NCBI RefSeq assembly: GCF_044324875.1
Contig: NZ_CP172185.1
Origin: Escherichia coli
GTDB taxonomy: Bacteria > Pseudomonadota > Gammaproteobacteria > Enterobacterales > Enterobacteriaceae
Length of the DNA: 64,000 nucleotides
Reading direction: 5' to 3' (one strand)
Positions 1-54,373 of this stretch are shown here, one piece after another. The translations under genes and the position numbers were made by a program. Numbering within the stretch: position 1 is the stretch's first letter; the number at the start of each line of letters is the position of its first letter. The notes under the pieces were generated by a model. It was given only the letters and a program-made list of their open reading frames with translations. It did not search any database and was not told the origin of the DNA.

Positions 1-740
1 TATGTAGCACCTAACGTAAATTCGTTACTTCTGACATCAACAGAGGATTTATATGTATCCTGCCCGTCTTCATACGTCAGGGTTGAATCACCTGCATCAA
101 GATAGCGATAAGCAAGGTCAAGACTGAAATCCGGGGTGACCTCATATTTCACGCCAACACCAAGGCTCCATGCGAAATTGTTATCATATCCCGAGTAATG
201 TAATGAAGAAGCATCACTTACTTCACCTGATTTATTCCAGGAGGTATCGGTGTATGTTGCCTTATGATGTACCCGCGCATAACCCAGTCCGGCTGATACC
301 CACGGAGTGAAAGCACTGCTGTTTCTGAAATCATAATACGTGTTCACCATCAGGGTATTCACGCTGAGCCTGTTTTGTGTGTCTTCCTTCCAACCATTAT
401 CTCCAGACGGGGACTCCCATGTATCCAGTGGATAGCGGGAATTCGCAGAGCCGCGACCATAGAATTCAACTTCCGTGCGTACAGGGACATTGTAGTGCTG
501 ATAAAAGTCGTATCCCACCGCAAGGCCAGCACCAAAAACCGTATCGCTCTTGTCACCGCCTTTATACTTATAAACATCATCCCCAAAGTCCTGACTAAAG
601 CGCTGATTATCCTGAGTGATAACAGATGCACCAGCCTTACCCGTGATATAGAAACCGGTTTTATCCGCATCTGCCAGCGTCAGCGTTGAAAACGTACCGG
701 TAAGCGCAGCTACCGCAGTGAGTGCCAGTAACTTTTTCAC
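1..740 (-). CDS. outer-membrane beta-barrel protein (porin/OmpA-like family), C-terminus cut by window edge
   Basis: Minus-strand frame opens with GTG at 740-738 behind an AGGAGAGG Shine-Dalgarno; N-terminus MKKLLALTAVAALTGTFSTLTLADA is a signal peptide; body is aromatic- and Gly-rich with alternating hydrophobic beta-strand pattern; no stop before position 1. Confidence 0.5.
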   Translation of the reverse strand, partial: MKKLLALTAVAALTGTFSTLTLADADKTGFYITGKAGASVITQDNQRFSQDFGDDVYKYKGGDKSDTVFGAGLAVGYDFYQHYNVPVRTEVEFYGRGSANSRYPLDTWESPSGDNGWKEDTQNRLSVNTLMVNTYYDFRNSSAFTPWVSAGLGYARVHHKATYTDTSWNKSGEVSDASSLHYSGYDNNFAWSLGVGVKYEVTPDFSLDLAYRYLDAGDSTLTYEDGQDTYKSSVDVRSNEFTLGAT

Positions 741-1054
741 AATCCACCTCTCCTGATGTTTCCTTCAGACATATGAATTTGTCCAATTTTAAGACGGATT
801 TCTCATTGGTAAAATGAATTGTACAGATCGTATCGATCGATAAAATCGATCGTTAAGCAGAAAAAAGATTTATCGTCAGCGAAGATTTGTTTATGGAAAT
901 GAGTGAAAAACGGGTTAAAAAACAGACTGTGCTGCTCATGTGAAACGGGAAGTGACGGGATAAGAAGTTATGTGAGGATTGTTACGGGAAATGCTGTTTT
1001 ACGTTGTTAAAATGTAACTCCGCAATGAAACTATTCCCTGTGGAGGTCCTGTAA

Positions 1055-1408
1055 ATGAACAAAGCACTCTCTTCCATTCTGCTCATCTTCGGTATCTGTA
1101 CATCATCACTGGCCGCTGAAAAAAACAGAACCGTCAGTTTTCCACGATGTGAAGGGCAGGAATCATCGGCTGTTGCAGCCAGCGTCAAACGGGACTATCT
1201 CCAGAAACAGGTGCTTCAGTGGAAAGATGACCAGGAAATTCTCGGTCAGCTGCGCCCCGTTGTCTGGGTGAATCTTCGTGAGCCGGTAAATAAAGGTGAT
1301 AATGTCATCACGGTGCATCTCACTGCCCGTGGAAAGAAAGCAGATATTCAGTATCGTGTGCGCGTTGACTGTAAGAACGGAAGTGCTACCTGGCAACGCC
1401 AGGGATGA
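1055..1408 (+). CDS. hypothetical small secreted protein (117 aa)
   Basis: ORF track; GGAGG 8 nt upstream of ATG; N-terminal signal peptide MNKALSSILLIFGICTSSLAA; no family recognised. Confidence 0.5.
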   Translation: MNKALSSILLIFGICTSSLAAEKNRTVSFPRCEGQESSAVAASVKRDYLQKQVLQWKDDQEILGQLRPVVWVNLREPVNKGDNVITVHLTARGKKADIQYRVRVDCKNGSATWQRQG

Positions 1409-1454
1409 ACGGGTGAAGTTGAATACAGAGCCCGAACGAACAGGCTCTCCATAC

Positions 1455-1929
1455 TCATCGTATATAACTGAATGCGGTGATGACGTGTTTCACCCCCGCC
1501 ACGCGACTGGCGATATCAGCAGCAGCCTGTCCTTCCTTCTCTGTAACTCTCCCCATAAGAAAGACTTCACCATTCTCCGTCAGTACCTTTACATCTGACA
1601 GTTTCACCCTGCTGCTCTTCAGTAACTGTGCCCGGATTTTTGTGGTCAGCCACGCATCAGTAGCTGTTTTATCAGCCCGAAGTGGTTTTCCCGTCCTTAT
1701 TTCATTCCATACCTGCACAGTCCCCTCAACACCATCTGCAATCTGACGGGCTTTTTCACCTGCACTACGGTCTGGTGCCTGCCCTGTCAGCAGTACAGTG
1801 CCCTGGTATGCTGTGACGATGATTCGCGCATCCCCCCTGAGTTGTGAGTCCTTCGACAGCGCACGGCTGACCCTTGCTTCCAGAATTTCATCATCAATCT
1901 GCGTTCCCGCACTTCGGGGGTCCACTGAC
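1455..1929 (-). pseudogene. BON-domain (OsmY/YraP-like) protein, 5-prime end replaced by IS21-family terminus
   Basis: ORF 1455..2015 has two BON-like segments; its first ~29 codons are encoded by the IS terminal repeats (1930-2015), so the native N-terminus and signal peptide are missing. Confidence 0.5.
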
Positions 1930-2050
1930 TGCAAAATGGCATCTGAATCGATCGCAGTTTGGCATTCGAATCGATCATGATTTGGCATCCATCTCCGATC
2001 ACAGTTTGGCATCACAATCGATCACGATTTGGCATGCTTCCGATCATTGA
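1930..2050 (+). repeat. IS21-family left-end multiple terminal repeats
   Basis: Five tandem copies of a ~20-bp unit (TTTGGCAT..CGATCG..GAT variants) between 1930 and 2050; typical IstA binding sites of IS21-family ends. Confidence 0.6.
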
Positions 2051-2131
2051 TTGGCATCCTGCCAGTCACTCCGGGAATTAACTCTTTTCACCACAGTCTC
2101 CATTGCCGTGTTTAAACCAGTGGAGACGTCA

Positions 2132-3697
2132 ATGTCCAGAAAGAGAAAATCCAGGAGCACTATGGAAACCTGTTTTAAGATCCTTCAGCTCAAGTTCGAC
2201 AAGAAGCTGACTAACCGTTGTATCGGACTGACGTTACACATCAGCGCCTCAACCGTTTTTGAGGTTCTTGCCCGCTTCAAAGCCTCTTCTCTGTCATGGC
2301 CATTACCTGCTGATATATCCCATGACACGCTGGAGAAACTCATTTTTCCGCCCAAAGACACCTTTGCATCAGAGCTTGTAATGCCTGACATGTTGTACTT
2401 CGATACGGAAATGAGAAAACCAGGTGTGACGCGGCAACTGTTGTGGATGGAATACAAGGCACAGGCGGGTAACAAAGCGATGGGATACTCGCACTTCTGC
2501 CGTTGCTACCGGGAGTGGAAAAAAACGCGACGTCTCTCCATGCGCCAGGAGCATCGTGCCGGCGAAAAGCTTTTTATCGACTTCTGTGGTCCTACGGTTC
2601 CTGTTATTAATCCGGACACCGGTGAGATACGCCGCGTGGCAATCTTCGTGGCCGTAATGGGGGCGTCCAACTATACCTACGTTGAAGCGTGCGAAGGTCA
2701 GGACATGATGTCATGGTTAAATGCCCACAGCCGTTGCCTGACCTTCCTGGGCGGCGTACCGAAGCTGCTCATCCCCGATAACCTCAGAAGCGCAGTGAAA
2801 AAGGCCGATCGATATGAGCCTGTCATCAACGACAGTTATCAGGCACTGGCTGAGCACTATGGCACGGTTATCATCCCGGCCCGACCACGCAAACCTAAAG
2901 ATAAACCAAAAGCAGAAAACGGCGTCCTCATCGTTGAACGATGGCTTCTTGCCCGCATCCGTAATGAAACCTTCCACACGCTCAGGGCGCTGAATGCGCG
3001 CCTTAGGGAGTTACTGACAGACATGAATAACCGGCCAATGAAGGGGTACGGCAATCAAACCCGTGCAGAACGCTTCCGCATACTGGATGCGCCAGCACTC
3101 TCTCCGCTGCCTCTGGCACCTTATGAATACACGGAATACAAAGCTGTGAAGGTTGGCCCTGACTACCACGTTGAATATGCCCGTCACTGGTACTCCGTTC
3201 CACACGAACTGGTCGGTCAGCGTCTGTCACTGAAGGCGGGGCAGTCGGTGGTACAGCTCTGGCACAAGGGGCAGTGTGTGGCGCAACATCCGCGCAGCAC
3301 ACATGAATATAAACACACAACCAATCCGCTTCACATGCCAGAGCGCCACCGGCAGCACGGGACATGGACACCGGAACGCCTGATCGAGCAGGGAAAACGT
3401 ACGGGCCCGTCCACAGGCCGGGTGGTTGAATCCATGCTGAAGGCAAAACCCCATCCGGAACTGGCTTATCGTGCAGTTCTGGGGCTGCTGGCACTTCAGA
3501 AAAAATACGGCCCGGAACGGCTGGAAAAGGCCTGTTACGTTGCCCTGCACTATAACGCCCCTGACAGACGCTTTATCGACAATCTGCTGCGTCACCATCG
3601 GGAGAACCTGGAGCTTCCATTATCCCGCCAGGGCGAACAACATCCGGCATATGCTTCAGAGCATGAAAACCTGCGTGGTCCGGGCTACTACCACTGA
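2132..3697 (+). CDS. istA: IS21-family transposase IstA
   Basis: ORF track 2051..3697; long ORF begins inside the terminal repeats, so the GGAGACG-preceded ATG at 2132 is the more likely start; N-terminal HTH then DDE-type catalytic region; followed by istB. Confidence 0.85.
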   Translation: MSRKRKSRSTMETCFKILQLKFDKKLTNRCIGLTLHISASTVFEVLARFKASSLSWPLPADISHDTLEKLIFPPKDTFASELVMPDMLYFDTEMRKPGVTRQLLWMEYKAQAGNKAMGYSHFCRCYREWKKTRRLSMRQEHRAGEKLFIDFCGPTVPVINPDTGEIRRVAIFVAVMGASNYTYVEACEGQDMMSWLNAHSRCLTFLGGVPKLLIPDNLRSAVKKADRYEPVINDSYQALAEHYGTVIIPARPRKPKDKPKAENGVLIVERWLLARIRNETFHTLRALNARLRELLTDMNNRPMKGYGNQTRAERFRILDAPALSPLPLAPYEYTEYKAVKVGPDYHVEYARHWYSVPHELVGQRLSLKAGQSVVQLWHKGQCVAQHPRSTHEYKHTTNPLHMPERHRQHGTWTPERLIEQGKRTGPSTGRVVESMLKAKPHPELAYRAVLGLLALQKKYGPERLEKACYVALHYNAPDRRFIDNLLRHHRENLELPLSRQGEQHPAYASEHENLRGPGYYH

Positions 3698-3713
3698 CAG
3701 AAGGAACAACAGT

Positions 3714-4469
3714 ATGAGTGATAACCTGTTAAACAAACTGACCCAACTGAAACTCCCGGCGATGGCCGGGAGCCTGATACGGCAGCGGGAAACGCCTCAG
3801 ACCTACGACGAACTGTCGTTCGAGGAAAGGCTGACGCTGCTGGTTGATGACGAGCTTCTGAGCAGGGAAAACAGCCGTGTGGCACGGTTGAGAAAAAATG
3901 CCGGCCTGAAATACCAGGCAACACCGGAAGGGCTGCGCTATCCGGCCTCAAGAGGTCTGCGGGCTGAACAGATGAGAGAACTGCTGAACGGCCACTACAT
4001 AACCCACAGGAAAAACCTGCTGATAACCGGTCCGACAGGATGTGGCAAGAGCTGGATAGCCAATGCGCTGGGCGAACAGGCATGTCGACAGAAACACAGC
4101 GTCCGGTACTGTAGAACCGGGCGATTACTGGAACAACTGGCTCAGGGACGTGTTGATGGCAGCTGGCTGAAATATCTGAAACAGTTGCAAAAAATACAGG
4201 TTCTAATCCTGGACGATCTGGGGCTGGAACAGTTAAGTAACGCCCAGTGTAATGACCTTCTGGAGCTCATAGAGGATCGTTACGGACAAAGCAGCACGAT
4301 AGTGGTAAGCCAGTTCCCGGTAGATAAATGGCATGGTCTGATGGAGAACCCAACAACAGCAGATGCCATCCTGGACAGACTGGTACATAACTCACACCGA
4401 GTGGTCCTTCAGGGAGAGTCACTGAGGAAAAATCCCCCGGTAGTGGAAAGCAGCGAAAAAACGCGTTAA
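3714..4469 (+). CDS. istB: IS21-family helper ATPase IstB
   Basis: Walker A GPTGCGKS, Walker B LILDDLG; start at ATG 3714 (MSDNLLNKL) with SD AAGGAA, not the longer in-frame track ORF 3471..4469. Confidence 0.9.
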   Translation: MSDNLLNKLTQLKLPAMAGSLIRQRETPQTYDELSFEERLTLLVDDELLSRENSRVARLRKNAGLKYQATPEGLRYPASRGLRAEQMRELLNGHYITHRKNLLITGPTGCGKSWIANALGEQACRQKHSVRYCRTGRLLEQLAQGRVDGSWLKYLKQLQKIQVLILDDLGLEQLSNAQCNDLLELIEDRYGQSSTIVVSQFPVDKWHGLMENPTTADAILDRLVHNSHRVVLQGESLRKNPPVVESSEKTR

Positions 4470-4759
4470 AAAGCGGTAGAAAAAGTTAAGTTCCCGGTTG
4501 ATCGAATGGATGCGAATCGCTGATCGGACTTCGATGCCAATCCGTGATCGAATAGAGCGGAATACGCAGGGAACCACACAGGGTATGGACAAACATAATA
4601 ACAATAACAGGATGAAAATATTGAATAAAAAATAAAAACCGAGACATCATCATTTGCAGTAATAGCCACCTCCTTACCGAAAAGTGTGAGTTGCCGGACA
4701 TTTTTTAAACGCATGATAAGGTCTGATGATACAGTCACCCTGCAACCAGGAGGTACATC

Positions 4760-5011
4760 ATGCGTATACGTGTTTTTGGTTACCGGCACTGCCCTTCAGT
4801 CCATCGCATCATGCATCACGCAACGCGAATCCCCGATGAAATGGAACCGGATGTTGTGTTTATTGATGTCGCGAAGCACAGTGTGACGCTGCGGGATATG
4901 GCTGACCGTGCAGGCTGCCCGGTGGATAACTTCCCGTGTGTGTTTGTTGATGATGTGTATCTGGAGCCCCTTCCACCAGAGCCGGGCAAACCGCACTTTA
5001 CATACTGCTGA
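4760..5011 (+). CDS. small thioredoxin/glutaredoxin-fold-like protein (83 aa)
   Basis: Strong SD AGGAGG 7 nt upstream; pattern MRIRVFGY-HCPS ... FPCVFVDDVYL resembles the glutaredoxin/NrdH layout but with the CxxC replaced by HCPS; function uncertain. Confidence 0.35.
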   Translation: MRIRVFGYRHCPSVHRIMHHATRIPDEMEPDVVFIDVAKHSVTLRDMADRAGCPVDNFPCVFVDDVYLEPLPPEPGKPHFTYC

Positions 5012-5178
5012 ATATTTATTACCGGATATGGACAATCGCTTTCATTCGGGATAAAAAATACTGCGCGTTCCTGGTTTATTTTGCGTTGCTGTCATGACGT
5101 GTTTGCCTTCATTGCCGGGATCGCGCACTTTTTGTTATAACTCCCCGGAGGACACTGTCTGTAATCAGATGGAAACCT

Positions 5179-5613
5179 TTATCTCAGTGATGTCCTGGTT
5201 AATACAGAATACTGCCCCGGACCAAGTAACATAATGGCAATCCCCCCCATGAAATACAGCATTTCATTTTCAAGCCCCCACGCCCCTACTTCAGTCAGTG
5301 TGAAAAACTTCCCTGTTCCGACCAGAAGCGTGGCAACAATCAGTGTCAGCGCATAAATCAGAGCAGCAGGTCTGGTAAATATCCCAAGAATGATAAGTAC
5401 CGGAGCCACGATTTCACCAATATACACACCATAGGCAATAAATCCTGGCAAACCAGCATCCTGCAACATTGATATAATCCAGTTGACACCGTGCTCTATT
5501 TTGGCCACACCATGGAACAGCATCAATATACCAAATGTCAGTCTCAGCAACAGAAGACCTGTATCCGGGTAGTCTGTCAGTCTGGTAAAGAACATATTTA
5601 TTCTTGCTGGCAT
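5179..5613 (-). CDS. DoxX-family inner membrane protein
   Basis: 144-aa protein with four hydrophobic helices and DoxX-like motifs (LLLRLTFGILMLFHG, GGIAIMLLGPG). Confidence 0.7.
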   Translation of the reverse strand: MPARINMFFTRLTDYPDTGLLLLRLTFGILMLFHGVAKIEHGVNWIISMLQDAGLPGFIAYGVYIGEIVAPVLIILGIFTRPAALIYALTLIVATLLVGTGKFFTLTEVGAWGLENEMLYFMGGIAIMLLGPGQYSVLTRTSLR

Positions 5614-6198
5614 AAAAAACCTCGTTAAACGATAACAGATAATGAAGAAACTATTATCGTTGAGTCGACACCATCAATTGACCAGATATTTCTGACATTC
5701 ATAATCAAAAAATTTGACAAAACTGTAAACGTTCGCTTTTTATACCAACACAGAATCCACTCAGTCACACAACCTGTATGCGTCATTTCCTGCTGTTATT
5801 TAAAAAATTTCTCACGTAACAGACATTTCAAAAAAACACTAAAAAATACCAGAACAATTAAGATAATATTACGATCAAATAAGTAAAAGTCTTTTGTCTG
5901 TTATTTTTATTTTCTGTGATTACTGTCATTCTTTCACCACTTTAATTAACATCGCATAATAATCCGGGAGGTGGATAAGATATGAAAATTAACTATCCTT
6001 TACTGGCGCTGGCGTTGAATTATTACCTGTAGAGCTCACTCCGGATGAGCAGAAAGAACCGATGGTGGCTCTTACTCCACTTTTATCCACTCCTTCACAC
6101 AGCACTGTCAGTGCAGGTGCCTGAAAGATCTCGTTCCGTCACGGTAAAATGACGCTGGAAAATTCTTCACCAGAACTGCTCACTGTGTTAATTCGTGA

Positions 6199-6372
6199 AC
6201 TGACCTGGGGGGAATGCGTGGTACCCTGCTGTACGGACTAATCGGAACCTGTCGGTTGAACGGTATCGATCCGGAAGCGTATCTGCGCCATATCCTGAAC
6301 GTTCTACCGGAATGGCCTTCCTGCATGGTTGATGAACTCCTGCCATGGAATATGGTGCTCCCATTGGGGTAA
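6199..6372 (+). pseudogene. IS66-family transposase (TnpC) C-terminal remnant
   Basis: Frame reads ...[50 protein letters not shown], matching the conserved C-terminus of the intact TnpC at 8167..9618; GTAAGCG-type end just downstream. Confidence 0.6.
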
Positions 6373-6491
6373 GCGTCAATACGGCGTTCGCTTAACTTAA
6401 CACTTACTTTCAAAGCCTGATATCTGTCCTACGCTTTTCCTCAATACCACATCGCCAGCAGGAAACAACCTAATGCCTGTGTTGGGGTCTG

Positions 6492-6516
6492 AATTACTAA
6501 TGATAATCATTTGCAT
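6492..6516 (+). promoter_or_regulatory. Fur box-like operator upstream of sitA
   Basis: AATTACTAATGATAATCATTTGCATT contains the AATGATAATCATT core of the Fur consensus. Confidence 0.55.
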
Positions 6517-6536
6517 TGTGTATAGCTTATGCTATA

Positions 6537-6558
6537 AAACATAGCCGTTGCTATGTTT
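6537..6558 (+). promoter_or_regulatory. MntR box upstream of sitA
   Basis: Palindrome AAACATAGC-CGTT-GCTATGTTT matches the MntR operator consensus; an adjacent second palindrome TATAGC-TTAT-GCTATA lies at 6521-6536. Confidence 0.6.
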
Positions 6559-6590
6559 GTTCTAATTTTACTCACTATAGGTACTGAATT

Positions 6591-7505
6591 ATGCACTCAA
6601 TAAAAAAAGTAACCATGCTCCTGGGGTGCCTCGCCCTCACCTGCTCGATAGCATTTCAGGCGAGTGCAACTGAAAAATTCAAGGTCATTACAACATTTAC
6701 CATCATCGCAGATATGGCCAAAAACGTGGCTGGAGATGCTGCAGAAGTCTCATCCATAACCAGGCCCGGTGCAGAAATTCATGAGTATCAGCCTACCCCT
6801 GGCGATATTAAACGTGCGCAGGGGGCACAACTGATTCTCGCCAACGGTATGAATCTGGAATTGTGGTTCCAGCGCTTTTACCAGCATCTCAGTGGTGTTC
6901 CAGAAGTGATTGTCTCTTCGGGTGTGACGCCAGTAGGGATCACCGAAGGCCCCTACGAGGGAAAACCTAACCCTCATGCCTGGATGTCGCCAGATAATGC
7001 TTTGATTTACGTCGATAATATTCGTGATGCGTTGATAAAATACGATCCGGCAAATGCAAAAACATACCAACGTAATGCCGATACTTATAAAGCCAAGATT
7101 ACCCAAACCCTTGCCCCCCTGCGTAAGCAGATTGCTGAACTCCCTGAGAATAAAAGATGGATGGTCACCAGTGAAGGGGCTTTTTCTTATCTCGCACGCG
7201 ATTTGGGGCTAAAAGAGCTTTATCTGTGGCCGATAAATGCCGATCAACAAGGAACACCCCAGCAGGTACGTAAAGTGGTTGATATAGTGAAGAAAAATAA
7301 TATCCCAGCGGTATTTAGTGAGAGTACGGTTTCCGATAAACCAGCGCGTCAGGTTGCGCGTGAAACCGGCGCACACTACGGCGGTGTGCTCTATGTCGAT
7401 TCCCTGAGCACAGAAAACGGCCCGGTACCTACGTATATCGACCTTCTGAAGGTTACTACCAGTACGCTGGTGCAGGGAATTAAAGCCGGGAAAAGGGAGA
7501 AGTAA
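6591..7505 (+). CDS. sitA: Mn/Fe ABC transporter periplasmic substrate-binding protein SitA
   Basis: 304 aa with signal peptide; cluster-9 metal-binding SBP fold; followed by a sitB start overlapping the stop (TAATG); Fur and MntR boxes upstream. Confidence 0.85.
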   Translation: MHSIKKVTMLLGCLALTCSIAFQASATEKFKVITTFTIIADMAKNVAGDAAEVSSITRPGAEIHEYQPTPGDIKRAQGAQLILANGMNLELWFQRFYQHLSGVPEVIVSSGVTPVGITEGPYEGKPNPHAWMSPDNALIYVDNIRDALIKYDPANAKTYQRNADTYKAKITQTLAPLRKQIAELPENKRWMVTSEGAFSYLARDLGLKELYLWPINADQQGTPQQVRKVVDIVKKNNIPAVFSESTVSDKPARQVARETGAHYGGVLYVDSLSTENGPVPTYIDLLKVTTSTLVQGIKAGKREK

Positions 7506-29857: not shown

Positions 29858-32237
<2,380 letters not shown>

Positions 32238-32242
32238 GCAAA

Positions 32243-32707
32243 CACATCAATGATGAACGCCACATAGACGACCCCCTCCCATGTGCTGACGTAAGTAAAA
32301 TCAGCCACCCACAACTGGTCAGGACGTTCTGCCACAAACTGACGGTTTACGCGGTCGCCTGCGGCAACGGCTTTCCGGCTGACGGTAGTGCGGACCTTTT
32401 TACCCCGGAGAACACCGGCAAGTCCCATAACCGCCATGAGGCGCGCCACTGTACATCTGGCTACCCTGATTCCTTCCCGTAACAACTGACGCCAGACTTT
32501 ACGCACACCGTATACCTGATGATTCCCATCGTATACGCGCAGTATCTCTTTCTTCAGCCAGTCATCGCGCTGCGCACGGGCACTGCGTTTATAAGGATGA
32601 TGTCGCTGTTGCTGACAGTGGTAATACGTTGACGGGGCAATATGTAGTTCACTGCATACCGGTCCGACCCCGTACAGCTTACGCAGCTTATCCAGCAGTG
32701 GCATCAC
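32243..32707 (-). pseudogene. IS629 orfB, N-terminal part
   Basis: Identical to OrfB residues 1-154 of copy 2, then runs into the IS100 end. Confidence 0.8.
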
Positions 32708-33030
32708 TTTTTCCAGAGGCGGTCGAACTCCGCCTTCGCAAAATAAGCGGAAGCCTGGCGAAGGATATCGTTACTGCGGCGCAGTTCACGATTTTCACGT
32801 TCCAGCTCTTTCAGACGCTGACGTTCAGCGGTGGTGAGCCCGCCATCACCGCCTCCGGTATCCCGCTCATGCTGGCGTACCCAGACACGCAGAGTCTCCG
32901 GTGTACAGCCAATCTTTGGGGCAATGGAACAAATTGCCGCCCACTGTGAGTCATATTCGCCCTGACTTTCCAGAACCATACGAATCGCCCTCTGACGGAC
33001 TTCGGGGGAAAAACGAGTATTTTTAGTCAT
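32704..33030 (-). CDS. IS629 OrfA
   Basis: 108 aa, identical to copy 2 OrfA (38056..38382). Confidence 0.85.
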
Positions 33031-33083
33031 TCTGTTTACCTCTTTCTCAGGGAGTTTAGTCTCCAGGATTCCCGGGGCGGTTC

Positions 33084-33448
33084 ACGGGAGCCAGGACCTT
33101 AAAATAACTACTTACAGGCTGTTGTATTCCAGCTGGTAATACGATTTCTGCACTGTCAACAAACGGAATGCCGTCTTTAAAGTCTGCCCTGTCATTAGCC
33201 TCATTGAGAATGAAATCGACTAGAACAGGCTCTTCGTTCACCAGTCCTTGATGGTTAAGAAATTTGACGTAAAGTTTAAGTGTATTGCTGACGGGATAAA
33301 TTTTTCCAAGAGCATTGGTAACAACATGGGCTGCGGTGAGAATCTTTTGCTGCTGACCATTATCGAAACCAAACGCAGTTGCTTCGAGATGGCTACTAAA
33401 ATGAGGATCATTGCTTACATAGATTTTACAAACGTAGTTTTCAAACAT
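33084..33448 (-). pseudogene. S1 (trypsin-like) protease-like gene, 3-prime end cut by IS629
   Basis: N-terminal 120 aa with catalytic-His motif ILTAAHVV; reading frame continues into the IS629 inverted repeat. Confidence 0.4.
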
Positions 33449-53006: not shown

Positions 53007-53601
53007 CCCGTTGTAAAGTGAGGATATGGACACCTCACTTGCTCATGAGAACGCCCGCCTGCGGGCACTGTTGCAGACGCAACAGGACACCATCCGCCAG
53101 ATGGCTGAATACAACCGCCTGCTCTCACAGCGGGTGGCGGCTTATGCTTCCGAAATCAACCGGCTGAAGGCGCTGGTTGCGAAACTGCAACGTATGCAGT
53201 TCGGTAAAAGCTCAGAAAAACTTCGTGCAAAAACCGAACGGCAGATACAGGAAGCACAGGAGCGAATCAGCGCACTTCAGGAAGAAATGGCGGAAACGCT
53301 GGGTGAGCAATATGACCCGGTACTGCCATCCGCCCTGCGCCAGTCTTCAGCCCGTAAACCGTTACCGGCCTCACTTCCCCGTGAAACCCGGGTTATCCGG
53401 CCGGAAGAGGAATGCTGTCCTGCCTGTGGTGGTGAACTCAGTTCTCTGGGATGTGATGTGTCAGAGCAACTGGAGCTTATCAGCAGCGCCTTTAAGGTTA
53501 TCTGCGTATTCCGCTCTATTCGATCACGGATTGGCATCGAAGTCCGATCAGCGATTCGCATCCATTCGATCAACCGGGAACTTAACTTTTTCTACCGCTT
53601 T

Positions 53602-54357
53602 TTAACGCGTTTTTTCGCTGCTTTCCACTACCGGGGGATTTTTCCTCAGTGACTCTCCCTGAAGGACCACTCGGTGTGAGTTATGTACCAGTCTGTCCAG
53701 GATGGCATCTGCTGTTGTTGGGTTCTCCATCAGACCATGCCATTTATCTACCGGGAACTGGCTTACCACTATCGTGCTGCTTTGTCCGTAACGATCCTCT
53801 ATGAGCTCCAGAAGGTCATTACACTGGGCGTTACTTAACTGTTCCAGCCCCAGATCGTCCAGGATTAGAACCTGTATTTTTTGCAACTGTTTCAGATATT
53901 TCAGCCAGCTGCCATCAACACGTCCCTGAGCCAGTTGTTCCAGTAATCGCCCGGTTCTACAGTACCGGACGCTGTGTTTCTGTCGACATGCCTGTTCGCC
54001 CAGCGCATTGGCTATCCAGCTCTTGCCACATCCTGTCGGACCGGTTATCAGCAGGTTTTTCCTGTGGGTTATGTAGTGGCCGTTCAGCAGTTCTCTCATC
54101 TGTTCAGCCCGCAGACCTCTTGAGGCCGGATAGCGCAGCCCTTCCGGTGTTGCCTGGTATTTCAGGCCGGCATTTTTTCTCAACCGTGCCACACGGCTGT
54201 TTTCCCTGCTCAGAAGCTCGTCATCAACCAGCAGCGTCAGCCTTTCCTCGAACGACAGTTCGTCGTAGGTCTGAGGCGTTTCCCGCTGCCGTATCAGGCT
54301 CCCGGCCATCGCCGGGAGTTTCAGTTGGGTCAGTTTGTTTAACAGGTTATCACTCAT
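53602..54357 (-). CDS. istB: IS21-family IstB
   Basis: Identical to 3714..4469. Confidence 0.9.
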   Translation of the reverse strand: MSDNLLNKLTQLKLPAMAGSLIRQRETPQTYDELSFEERLTLLVDDELLSRENSRVARLRKNAGLKYQATPEGLRYPASRGLRAEQMRELLNGHYITHRKNLLITGPTGCGKSWIANALGEQACRQKHSVRYCRTGRLLEQLAQGRVDGSWLKYLKQLQKIQVLILDDLGLEQLSNAQCNDLLELIEDRYGQSSTIVVSQFPVDKWHGLMENPTTADAILDRLVHNSHRVVLQGESLRKNPPVVESSEKTR

Positions 54358-54373
54358 ACTGTTGTTCCTTCTG

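What the first reader, a model, noticed from the sequence alone, without database searches (positions are those of the whole stretch)
1455..1929. BON-domain gene lost its 5-prime end to the IS21-family insertion
The two BON domains are intact, but the first ~29 codons of the ORF come from IS terminal repeats, so the native signal peptide or lipobox is gone. A protein may still be made from IS-borne signals but would be mislocalised.
Basis: seen in the sequence. Interest (0 to 1): 0.25.

Follow-up and report, generated by a model that had tools for sequence, protein, structure and literature searches.

The report
IS-truncated DolP-like lipoprotein pseudogene
A spare, island-borne copy of the outer-membrane lipoprotein gene dolP lost its first 33 codons and its upstream region when a mobile element arrived and 230 bases were deleted, leaving an ordinary dead gene remnant that a public annotation nevertheless names as an intact lipoprotein.

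Summary
Window 1455-1929 (- strand) is the 3' part, codons 34-190 plus stop, of a 190-aa DolP/YraP-like dual-BON lipoprotein gene. It is 100% identical to the intact allele in E. coli strain 135 and about 17 other complete E. coli chromosomes. At 1929|1930 it abuts the left end of a 2639-bp IS21-family element (ISSso4-like; 1930-4568).

This is not a simple insertion. The IS copy has no target-site duplication and replaces 230 bp of the intact locus: codons 1-33 (signal peptide and lipobox LLQG-C18), the GGAGG ribosome-binding site and 132 bp upstream. Those 230 bp occur nowhere else in the window.

Both BON domains and the lipid-binding Trp are intact. One IS-internal ATG (1988) has a GGAG Shine-Dalgarno. 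No promoter-like site faces the remnant, and the new N-terminus is hydrophilic. Any product would therefore be cytoplasmic and unlipidated, and by analogy with K-12 DolP non-functional.

Verdict: ordinary IS-mediated pseudogenisation of an accessory paralogue. Side notes: NCBI names the 177-aa chimera as an intact DolP, and the same IS hit the same gene independently in another strain.

The parts
1455..1929 (-). Retained native 3' part of the island dolP-like gene: third base of codon 33, codons 34-190 and the stop codon (1455-1457).
   Evidence: 100% identical to L001 (E. coli strain 135), where it is the 3' part of a 190-aa lipoprotein gene. NCBIfam DolP model matched from profile position 35 to 191.
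1692..1895 (-). BON domain 1 (aa 41-108 of the 186-aa ORF), complete.
   Evidence: Pfam PF04972, profile positions 1-67 of 69, E=2.5e-15 on the N-terminal half alone.
1464..1661 (-). BON domain 2 (aa 119-184), complete. It includes the Trp (TDAWLTT) equivalent to the phospholipid-binding W127 of K-12 DolP.
   Evidence: Pfam PF04972, profile positions 1-67 of 69. Alignment to PDB 7A2D. Role of W127 from PMC7806268.
1930..2015 (-). IS-derived 5' extension of the mechanical ORF (28 2/3 codons, [29 protein letters not shown]). It reads antisense through the IS left terminal repeats.
   Evidence: The sequence belongs to the IS, being identical in hundreds of plasmid and chromosomal copies. It has no hydrophobic core.
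1986..1996 (-). The only Shine-Dalgarno-like start inside the IS end: GGAG (1996-1993), a 4-nt spacer, then ATG (1988-1986). It gives the 177-aa chimera that NCBI lists as WP_395762518.1.
   Evidence: Duplex with the anti-SD is -6.6 kcal/mol, against +0.3 for GTG2015 and ATG2012 and -9.3 for the native start. The exact 177-aa sequence is in NCBI, named as a DolP lipoprotein.
1930..4568 (+). IS21-family insertion sequence, copy A (2639 bp, TGCA...CGCA; PGAP name: ISSso4 family). It has no target-site duplication (flanks ACTGAC and GGGAAC).
   Evidence: Other copies carry 5-7 bp duplications.
1947..2058 (+). Left terminal inverted repeat region, made of five 20-23 bp direct repeats (CGATCnnnGTTTGGCAT): the IstA binding-site type of repeat.
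   Evidence: the repeat finder family D2, with inverted matches to 4475-4556. Multiple L1/L2 repeats are typical of the IS21 family (PMC10122671).
2132..3697 (+). istA transposase. PGAP starts it at 2162 in other copies.
   Evidence: Pfam rve and Mu-transpos_C_2. Annotation of identical copies.
3714..4469 (+). istB AAA+ helper ATPase.
   Evidence: Pfam IstB_IS21, E=2e-60. Annotation of identical copies.
4569..4759 (.). What remains (191 bp) of the 323-bp divergent intergenic region between the dolP-like gene and the glutaredoxin-like ORF at 4760-5011 (+). The 132 bp nearest dolP are deleted.
   Evidence: Comparison with L001 4129-4451.
53503..56141 (-). Second copy (B) of the same IS, 100% identical and inverted. 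It has a perfect 6-bp target duplication (53497-53502 and 56142-56147) and sits inside an ISCro1 (IS66-family) transposase gene. It serves as the internal control for what a simple insertion of this IS looks like.

Best explanation
Window 1455-1929 is a pseudogene remnant. An accessory, island-borne paralogue of the outer-membrane lipoprotein gene dolP (yraP) was hit by a 2639-bp IS21-family element.

Either during that event or afterwards, 230 bp next to the IS left end were deleted. The likely route is an IS-mediated adjacent deletion or intramolecular transposition. Less likely is recombination between two nearby direct copies.

The deletion removed codons 1-33 (signal peptide, lipobox Cys18 and most of the flexible linker), the GGAGG ribosome-binding site and 132 bp of upstream DNA, where the promoter presumably lay.

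Shown:
- the junctions, the deletion and the absence of a target duplication
- two intact BON domains
- loss of every export and lipidation signal

Inferred:
- The remnant is not, or only weakly, transcribed.
- If it is translated from the IS-internal GGAG-ATG (1988), the 177-aa product stays in the cytoplasm, unlipidated. It then cannot do what DolP-type proteins do at the inner leaflet of the outer membrane.
- The event is recent. The remnant has no further mutations, and the two IS copies in the window are identical.
For: - Identity of the remnant: window 1-1929 and 4569-7339 match the intact locus L001 at 100% and 99.9%, with L001 4031-4260 (230 bp) missing. The same gap of 230-231 bp (BLAST coordinates) between the two flanks is seen in every record that BLAST lists for both flanks.
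- What the missing segment encodes: MQRWFLPFLSTLLLLQGCVAAALVGTAAVGTKV, plus the ribosome-binding site.
- The 230 bp have no match anywhere in the 64-kb window.
- IS ends are defined by seven other copies. Six of these (copy B and five plasmid copies) carry 5-7 bp target duplications, while copy A has none. IS21-family integration normally leaves short direct repeats (PMC10122671).
- All homologues keep LLLQGC and the linker.
- The NCBIfam DolP model is matched only from position 35.
- The new N-terminus is hydrophilic.
- No sigma-70-like promoter lies in 1400-2300 on either strand. The IS21 left-end -10 box faces inward.
- DolP function requires acylation of Cys19 and outer-membrane targeting (PMC7806268).
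Against: - Expression cannot be excluded. A GGAG-N4-ATG start exists in the IS end, the consensus promoter scan is crude, and antisense or read-through transcription across the IS is untested.
- The coding part shows no decay and is 100% identical to the intact allele. Sequence alone therefore cannot show that it is non-functional.
- PGAP called the chimera as an ordinary gene.
- The requirement for outer-membrane localisation was shown for K-12 DolP, which is 62% identical, not for this paralogue.
Confidence: 0.88

Rival explanations
1. The chimeric ORF is expressed from IS-borne signals (ATG 1988 with GGAG). It yields a soluble cytoplasmic dual-BON protein that retains some activity, such as binding anionic phospholipid at the cytoplasmic face of the inner membrane, or that acts as a new or dominant-negative factor.
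For: - An SD-like GGAG lies 4 nt upstream of ATG 1988, with a duplex energy of -6.6 kcal/mol.
- Both BON domains and the W127-equivalent Trp are intact.
- The coding sequence is undamaged.
- E. coli does have a cytoplasmic BON protein, Kbp, with no predictable signal sequence (PMC7806268).
Against: - No promoter-like site faces the remnant.
- Known IS21 promoter elements point the other way.
- The 4-nt spacer is short.
- Mislocalised DolP variants do not complement.
- Nothing suggests selection for the fusion. In another strain the same gene is cut at a different codon by the same IS.
Confidence: 0.07
2. A simple IS insertion followed by recombination between the two inverted IS copies in the window (inversion). 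On this reading the 5' end of the gene survives next to the other copy.
For: Two 100% identical inverted copies lie 49 kb apart.
Against: - The right flank of copy A is collinear with the intact locus, only 230 bp further on.
- Copy B has a perfect 6-bp target duplication and interrupts ISCro1 cleanly.
- The missing 230 bp match nothing in the window.
Confidence: 0.01
3. An assembly artefact. The IS was placed or collapsed wrongly by the assembler, and the gene is really intact or simply interrupted.
For: The element is a multi-copy repeat in this genome and in E. coli generally: 1826 of 5426 genomes match its left end.
Against: - Both junctions are base-precise at the true IS termini.
- Repeat collapse does not remove 230 bp of unique sequence.
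- The window otherwise matches relatives at 99.4-100%, apart from a 30.3-39.3 kb stretch that differs from strain 135.
- An independent, truncating insertion of the same IS in this gene exists in another assembly.
Confidence: 0.03

Closest known systems
DolP (YraP) of E. coli K-12, the dual-BON outer-membrane lipoprotein (PDB 7A2D; NCBIfam NF008247)
   Same: Same architecture in the intact allele: signal peptide, lipobox, flexible linker, BON1 and BON2. It is 62% identical over 172 ungapped residues, and the phospholipid-binding Trp is conserved.
   Different: This is a second, accessory copy in a genomic island, found in about 18 of 5426 complete E. coli genomes. It lies next to a yebF paralogue and a beta-barrel OMP gene, not at the core dolP locus downstream of diaA. 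In this window it also lacks codons 1-33, so it has no signal peptide or lipidated Cys.
IS21-family insertion sequences (IS21, IS5376, ISSso4-like)
   Same: istA (DDE transposase) and istB (AAA+) genes, TG...CA termini, multiple terminal direct repeats, and 5-7 bp target duplications in other copies.
   Different: Copy A has no target duplication and is associated with a 230-bp flanking deletion.
IS-mediated gene truncation and adjacent deletion (classical pseudogene formation in Enterobacteriaceae)
   Same: The IS end abuts a truncated ORF, the flanking DNA is lost, no duplication remains, and a chimeric ORF extends into the IS end.
   Different: Nothing unusual. The one point worth recording is that automated annotation named the chimera as an intact lipoprotein.

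Membership tests
DolP/YraP lipoprotein (NCBIfam NF008247 equivalog) | Two tandem BON domains (PF04972) | tested here: met
   BON1 at aa 41-108 and BON2 at aa 119-184, both full length.
DolP/YraP lipoprotein (NCBIfam NF008247 equivalog) | Whole-protein score above the curated cut-off | tested here: met
   233.9 bits against a cut-off of 184, but only profile positions 35-191 are matched. The intact allele scores 279.4 bits over positions 10-191.
DolP/YraP lipoprotein (NCBIfam NF008247 equivalog) | Sec/Lol signal peptide with a lipobox and an acylated Cys (C19 in K-12) | tested here: not met
   The window ORF starts with IS-derived hydrophilic residues and has no L-x-G-C motif. The intact allele has LLQG-C18. 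The window gene is therefore a truncated derivative, not a functional member.
DolP/YraP lipoprotein (NCBIfam NF008247 equivalog) | BON2 alpha-1 Trp (W127) needed for binding anionic phospholipid | tested here: met
   TDAWLTTKIR aligns with NDTWITTKVR of 7A2D. The role of this residue comes from PMC7806268.
DolP/YraP lipoprotein (NCBIfam NF008247 equivalog) | Core-genome locus (downstream of diaA, with sigma-E promoters) | tested here: not met
   The gene lies in an accessory island between a yebF paralogue and a glutaredoxin-like/DoxX pair, and is present in only about 18 of 5426 genomes. Only a weak sigma-E-like match was found upstream of the intact allele. It is a paralogue or xenologue, not the orthologue.
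DolP/YraP lipoprotein (NCBIfam NF008247 equivalog) | Outer-membrane localisation and a role in envelope integrity | not testable with these tools
   This needs fractionation and complementation experiments.
IS21 family insertion sequence | istA (DDE/rve transposase) followed by istB (IstB_IS21 AAA+ ATPase) | tested here: met
   PGAP names them in identical copies.
IS21 family insertion sequence | Terminal inverted repeats that end in TG...CA and are built of multiple direct repeats | tested here: met
   Termini TGCA...CGCA. Five 20-23 bp repeats lie at the left end, with inverted matches at the right end. Family description in PMC10122671.
IS21 family insertion sequence | Short target-site duplication flanking the element | tested here: not met
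   Copy A has ACTGAC on one side and GGGAAC on the other, so no duplication. This is explained by the 230-bp deletion. Copy B and five of six plasmid copies have 5-7 bp duplications. The element itself is therefore a normal family member, and only this copy's flanks are rearranged.

The most novel reading that the evidence does not exclude
The truncation may not be neutral decay. On this reading the island DolP paralogue is repeatedly inactivated by the same IS21-family element: two independent hits are shown, and a further recurrent contig break falls at codon 41. That could reflect selection for its loss in poultry-associated E. coli. Alternatively, the IS-provided GGAG-ATG start could produce a cytoplasmic dual-BON protein with a new lipid-binding role at the inner membrane.
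Probability: 0.05. Interest if true: 0.35.

Novelty: already known. Interest (0 to 1): 0.08.

Why it matters
It matters little for biology. This is a textbook IS-mediated pseudogenisation of a non-essential accessory paralogue, and the strain almost certainly keeps its core dolP.

Its practical value is for annotation. The chimeric 177-aa ORF is deposited as a normal 'division/outer membrane stress-associated lipid-binding lipoprotein' (WP_395762518.1) although it has no signal peptide or lipobox. The case shows how ORFs that run into IS ends escape pseudogene flagging.

It also documents an active, recently expanding ISSso4-like element. The window holds two identical copies, and the same gene was hit in another strain. 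The element is remodelling a large sit/iol/ter island in poultry-associated E. coli.

Tried and rejected
1. Inversion between the two inverted IS copies, with the 5' end surviving elsewhere. Rejected: the right flank is collinear with the intact locus, copy B has a perfect duplication, and the 230 bp match nothing in the window.

2. An outward promoter in the IS left end. The consensus scan found none in 1400-2300. My relaxed scan gave only one 8-of-12 match (GTGACT-15-AATGAT, 2069-2043) and two weak sigma-E-like matches, so nothing convincing.

3. GTG 2015 or ATG 2012 as real starts. Rejected because neither has a Shine-Dalgarno.

4. Finding the source record through the exact 177-aa protein. 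It was not on record in the contig index. No complete E. coli genome in the collection carries this junction.

5. Ambiguity over whether the IS is 2639, 2640 or 2641 bp, because C precedes and G follows both copies in the window. Resolved by six plasmid copies and L003, where those flanking bases vary.

6. Other 'partial' members of the protein cluster. L013-L015 are plain contig ends with no IS sequence visible and are uninformative.

7. A sigma-E promoter upstream of the intact allele. Only a weak 5/7 plus 4/5 match was found, so no conclusion.

Full report
**1. What is in the sequence**

The - strand ORF at 1455..2015 (186 aa) exists and contains two complete BON domains. Pfam PF04972 scores E=6e-34. 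BON1 covers aa 41-108 and BON2 covers aa 119-184, each matching profile positions 1-67 of 69.

Immediately to its right lies an IS21-family element. Its istA gene carries rve and Mu-transposase-C domains, and its istB gene matches IstB_IS21 at E=2e-60. The element is near-identical to hundreds of plasmid and chromosomal copies that PGAP calls 'ISSso4 family'.

The left end carries five 20-23 bp direct repeats (1947-2058), with inverted counterparts at 4475-4556. This is the L1/L2...R1/R2 architecture described for the IS21 family (PMC10122671).

**2. Exact IS boundaries**

I compared copy A, a second 100% identical inverted copy in the window (53503-56141) and six plasmid copies. The element is 2639 bp, TGCA...CGCA.

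The base before TGCA and the base after CGCA vary between copies, so neither belongs to the IS.

Five of the six plasmid copies and copy B carry 5-7 bp target duplications. For copy B the duplication is GTTATC, which is present once in the uninterrupted ISCro1 transposase gene of strain 135.

Copy A therefore spans 1930-4568. Its flanks, ACTGAC and GGGAAC, are not a duplication.

**3. The intact locus**

The left flank (900-1929) and the right flank (4570-5600) both occur on about 17-18 of 5426 complete E. coli chromosomes, mostly from poultry isolates. In every record that BLAST lists for both flanks they are separated by 230-231 bp (BLAST coordinates), not by an IS.

In strain 135 (L001) the gene is annotated dolP and encodes 190 aa starting MQRWFLPFLSTLLLLQGCVAAALVGTAAVGTKVSVDPRS....

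Window 1-1929 equals L001 2102-4030 at 100% identity. Window 4569-7339 equals L001 4261-7030 at 99.9%.

The window therefore lacks L001 4031-4260, which is 230 bp. This segment comprises:
- codons 1-33, apart from the last base of codon 33
- the GGAGG Shine-Dalgarno
- 132 bp of the 323-bp divergent intergenic region

These 230 bp have no significant match anywhere in the 64-kb window.

**4. Comparison with the family**

The intact protein passes the NCBIfam DolP equivalog model (279 bits). The window ORF still passes at 234 bits against a cut-off of 184, but only from profile position 35.

It is 62% identical, without gaps, to E. coli K-12 DolP/YraP (PDB 7A2D). The Trp equivalent to the phospholipid-binding W127 is conserved.

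In an alignment with the intact allele and eight further DolP-family homologues, including more distant ones, all of them carry LLLQGC and the Gly/Ala-rich linker. The window ORF has unrelated hydrophilic residues up to ...AILQ and is then identical to the intact allele from S34 onward.

Hydrophobicity of the first 45 residues (maximum Kyte-Doolittle value over 11 residues) is 0.77 in the window ORF and 2.3 in the intact protein.

**5. Could it still be expressed?**

Translation:
- GTG 2015 and ATG 2012 have no Shine-Dalgarno (+0.3 kcal/mol).
- ATG 1988 is preceded by GGAG (1996-1993) with a 4-nt spacer (-6.6 kcal/mol).
- The native start scores -9.3 kcal/mol.

Transcription:
- No sigma-70-like site at 9 or more of 12 positions exists in 1400-2300 on either strand. 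My relaxed scan found only one marginal hit.
- In IS21 the left TIR holds a -10 box and the right TIR a -35 box, and both serve istA. They point into the element at the left end, away from the remnant (PMC10122671).

Expression is therefore unsupported but not excluded.

**6. Consequence**

For K-12 DolP, three changes each abolished complementation: the C19A mutation (no acylation), replacement of the signal peptide by PelB (periplasmic targeting), and re-targeting to the inner membrane. Inner-membrane targeting also abolished septal localisation (PMC7806268).

By homology, which is inference, a cytoplasmic and unlipidated 177-aa chimera cannot perform a DolP-type function.

The gene is an accessory island paralogue. 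It sits next to a yebF paralogue and a beta-barrel OMP gene. Its loss is therefore expected to be tolerated.

**7. Mechanism of the rearrangement (inferred)**

The most likely route is insertion followed by an IS-mediated adjacent deletion, that is, intramolecular transposition of one end. This leaves one IS copy, no duplication and a missing flank.

Two nearby direct insertions followed by recombination would give the same end state.

Inversion between copies A and B is excluded (section 3).

The event looks recent, because the remnant carries no further mutations and copies A and B are identical.

**8. Things seen in passing**

(a) NCBI holds exactly the 177-aa chimera (WP_395762518.1 / XJR43857.1, on a 5.75-Mb contig), named as a normal DolP lipoprotein. 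This is an annotation error.

(b) In assembly GCA_019436705.1 a contig begins with the last 19 nt of the same IS (equal to window 4550-4568). It is fused to the same gene at about nt 229, in the opposite orientation, so this is an independent hit.

(c) Eleven contigs from other assemblies all begin at gene nt 121. The cause is unknown.

(d) The window is a large island carrying sit, iol and ter genes and a serine-protease autotransporter. It is collinear with strain 135 apart from IS differences.

**9. Verdict**

This is an ordinary IS-mediated 5' truncation that produced a pseudogene. Novelty: already known. Interest: low.

Noticed in passing
window 53503-56141 (- strand); duplications at 53497-53502 and 56142-56147: A second, 100% identical copy of the same 2639-bp IS21-family element, inverted relative to copy A. 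It has a clean 6-bp target duplication (GTTATC) and sits inside an ISCro1 (IS66-family) transposase gene. Two identical inverted copies 49 kb apart could invert the sit/iol/ter segment by homologous recombination.
   Followed up: yes
window 1458-1988 (- strand): The exact 177-aa chimeric ORF, starting at the IS-internal ATG, is deposited in NCBI as WP_395762518.1 / XJR43857.1. It is named 'division/outer membrane stress-associated lipid-binding lipoprotein' although it has no signal peptide or lipobox. It should be flagged as a pseudogene.
   Followed up: partly
L003 1-40 (GCA_019436705.1, JAGKKP010000043.1): Another E. coli assembly has the right end of the same IS (GAATAGAGCGGAATACGCA) fused to the same dolP-like gene at about nt 229 (codon 76/77), in the opposite orientation. 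This is an independent insertion of the same element into the same small gene.
   Followed up: partly
L004, L005, L006 position 1 (gene nt 121, codon 41): Eleven contigs from several assemblies all begin at exactly the same base of this gene. This suggests a repeat element inserted there in another lineage. The element itself is not visible on these contigs.
   Followed up: no
window 4569-5011: The divergent glutaredoxin-like ORF (4760-5011, +; weak Pfam Glutaredoxin hit) keeps 191 bp of its upstream region. That region now abuts the IS right end, which in IS21 carries an outward-facing -35 box, so its expression might be altered. The consensus scan found no promoter in 4400-4800.
   Followed up: partly
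window 1-1408: The neighbours of the dolP-like gene are a YebF-family paralogue (1055-1408, +; about 84% DNA identity to another E. coli yebF-family copy) and an 8-stranded-type beta-barrel OMP gene (about 3-740, -). Together they form a small envelope-protein module within the island.
   Followed up: partly
window about 30283-39311: This stretch is not collinear with strain 135. IS3-family sequence occurs twice (32238-33084 and 38002-39311), with about 4.6 kb between the copies that is absent from the strain 135 stretch compared here (L002, 50 kb).
   Followed up: no
P0002 (cluster of 6 sequences): A near-identical allele of the intact island protein has Leu instead of the conserved BON2 Trp (TDALLTT). 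This is the residue whose mutation abolishes lipid binding in K-12 DolP.
   Followed up: no
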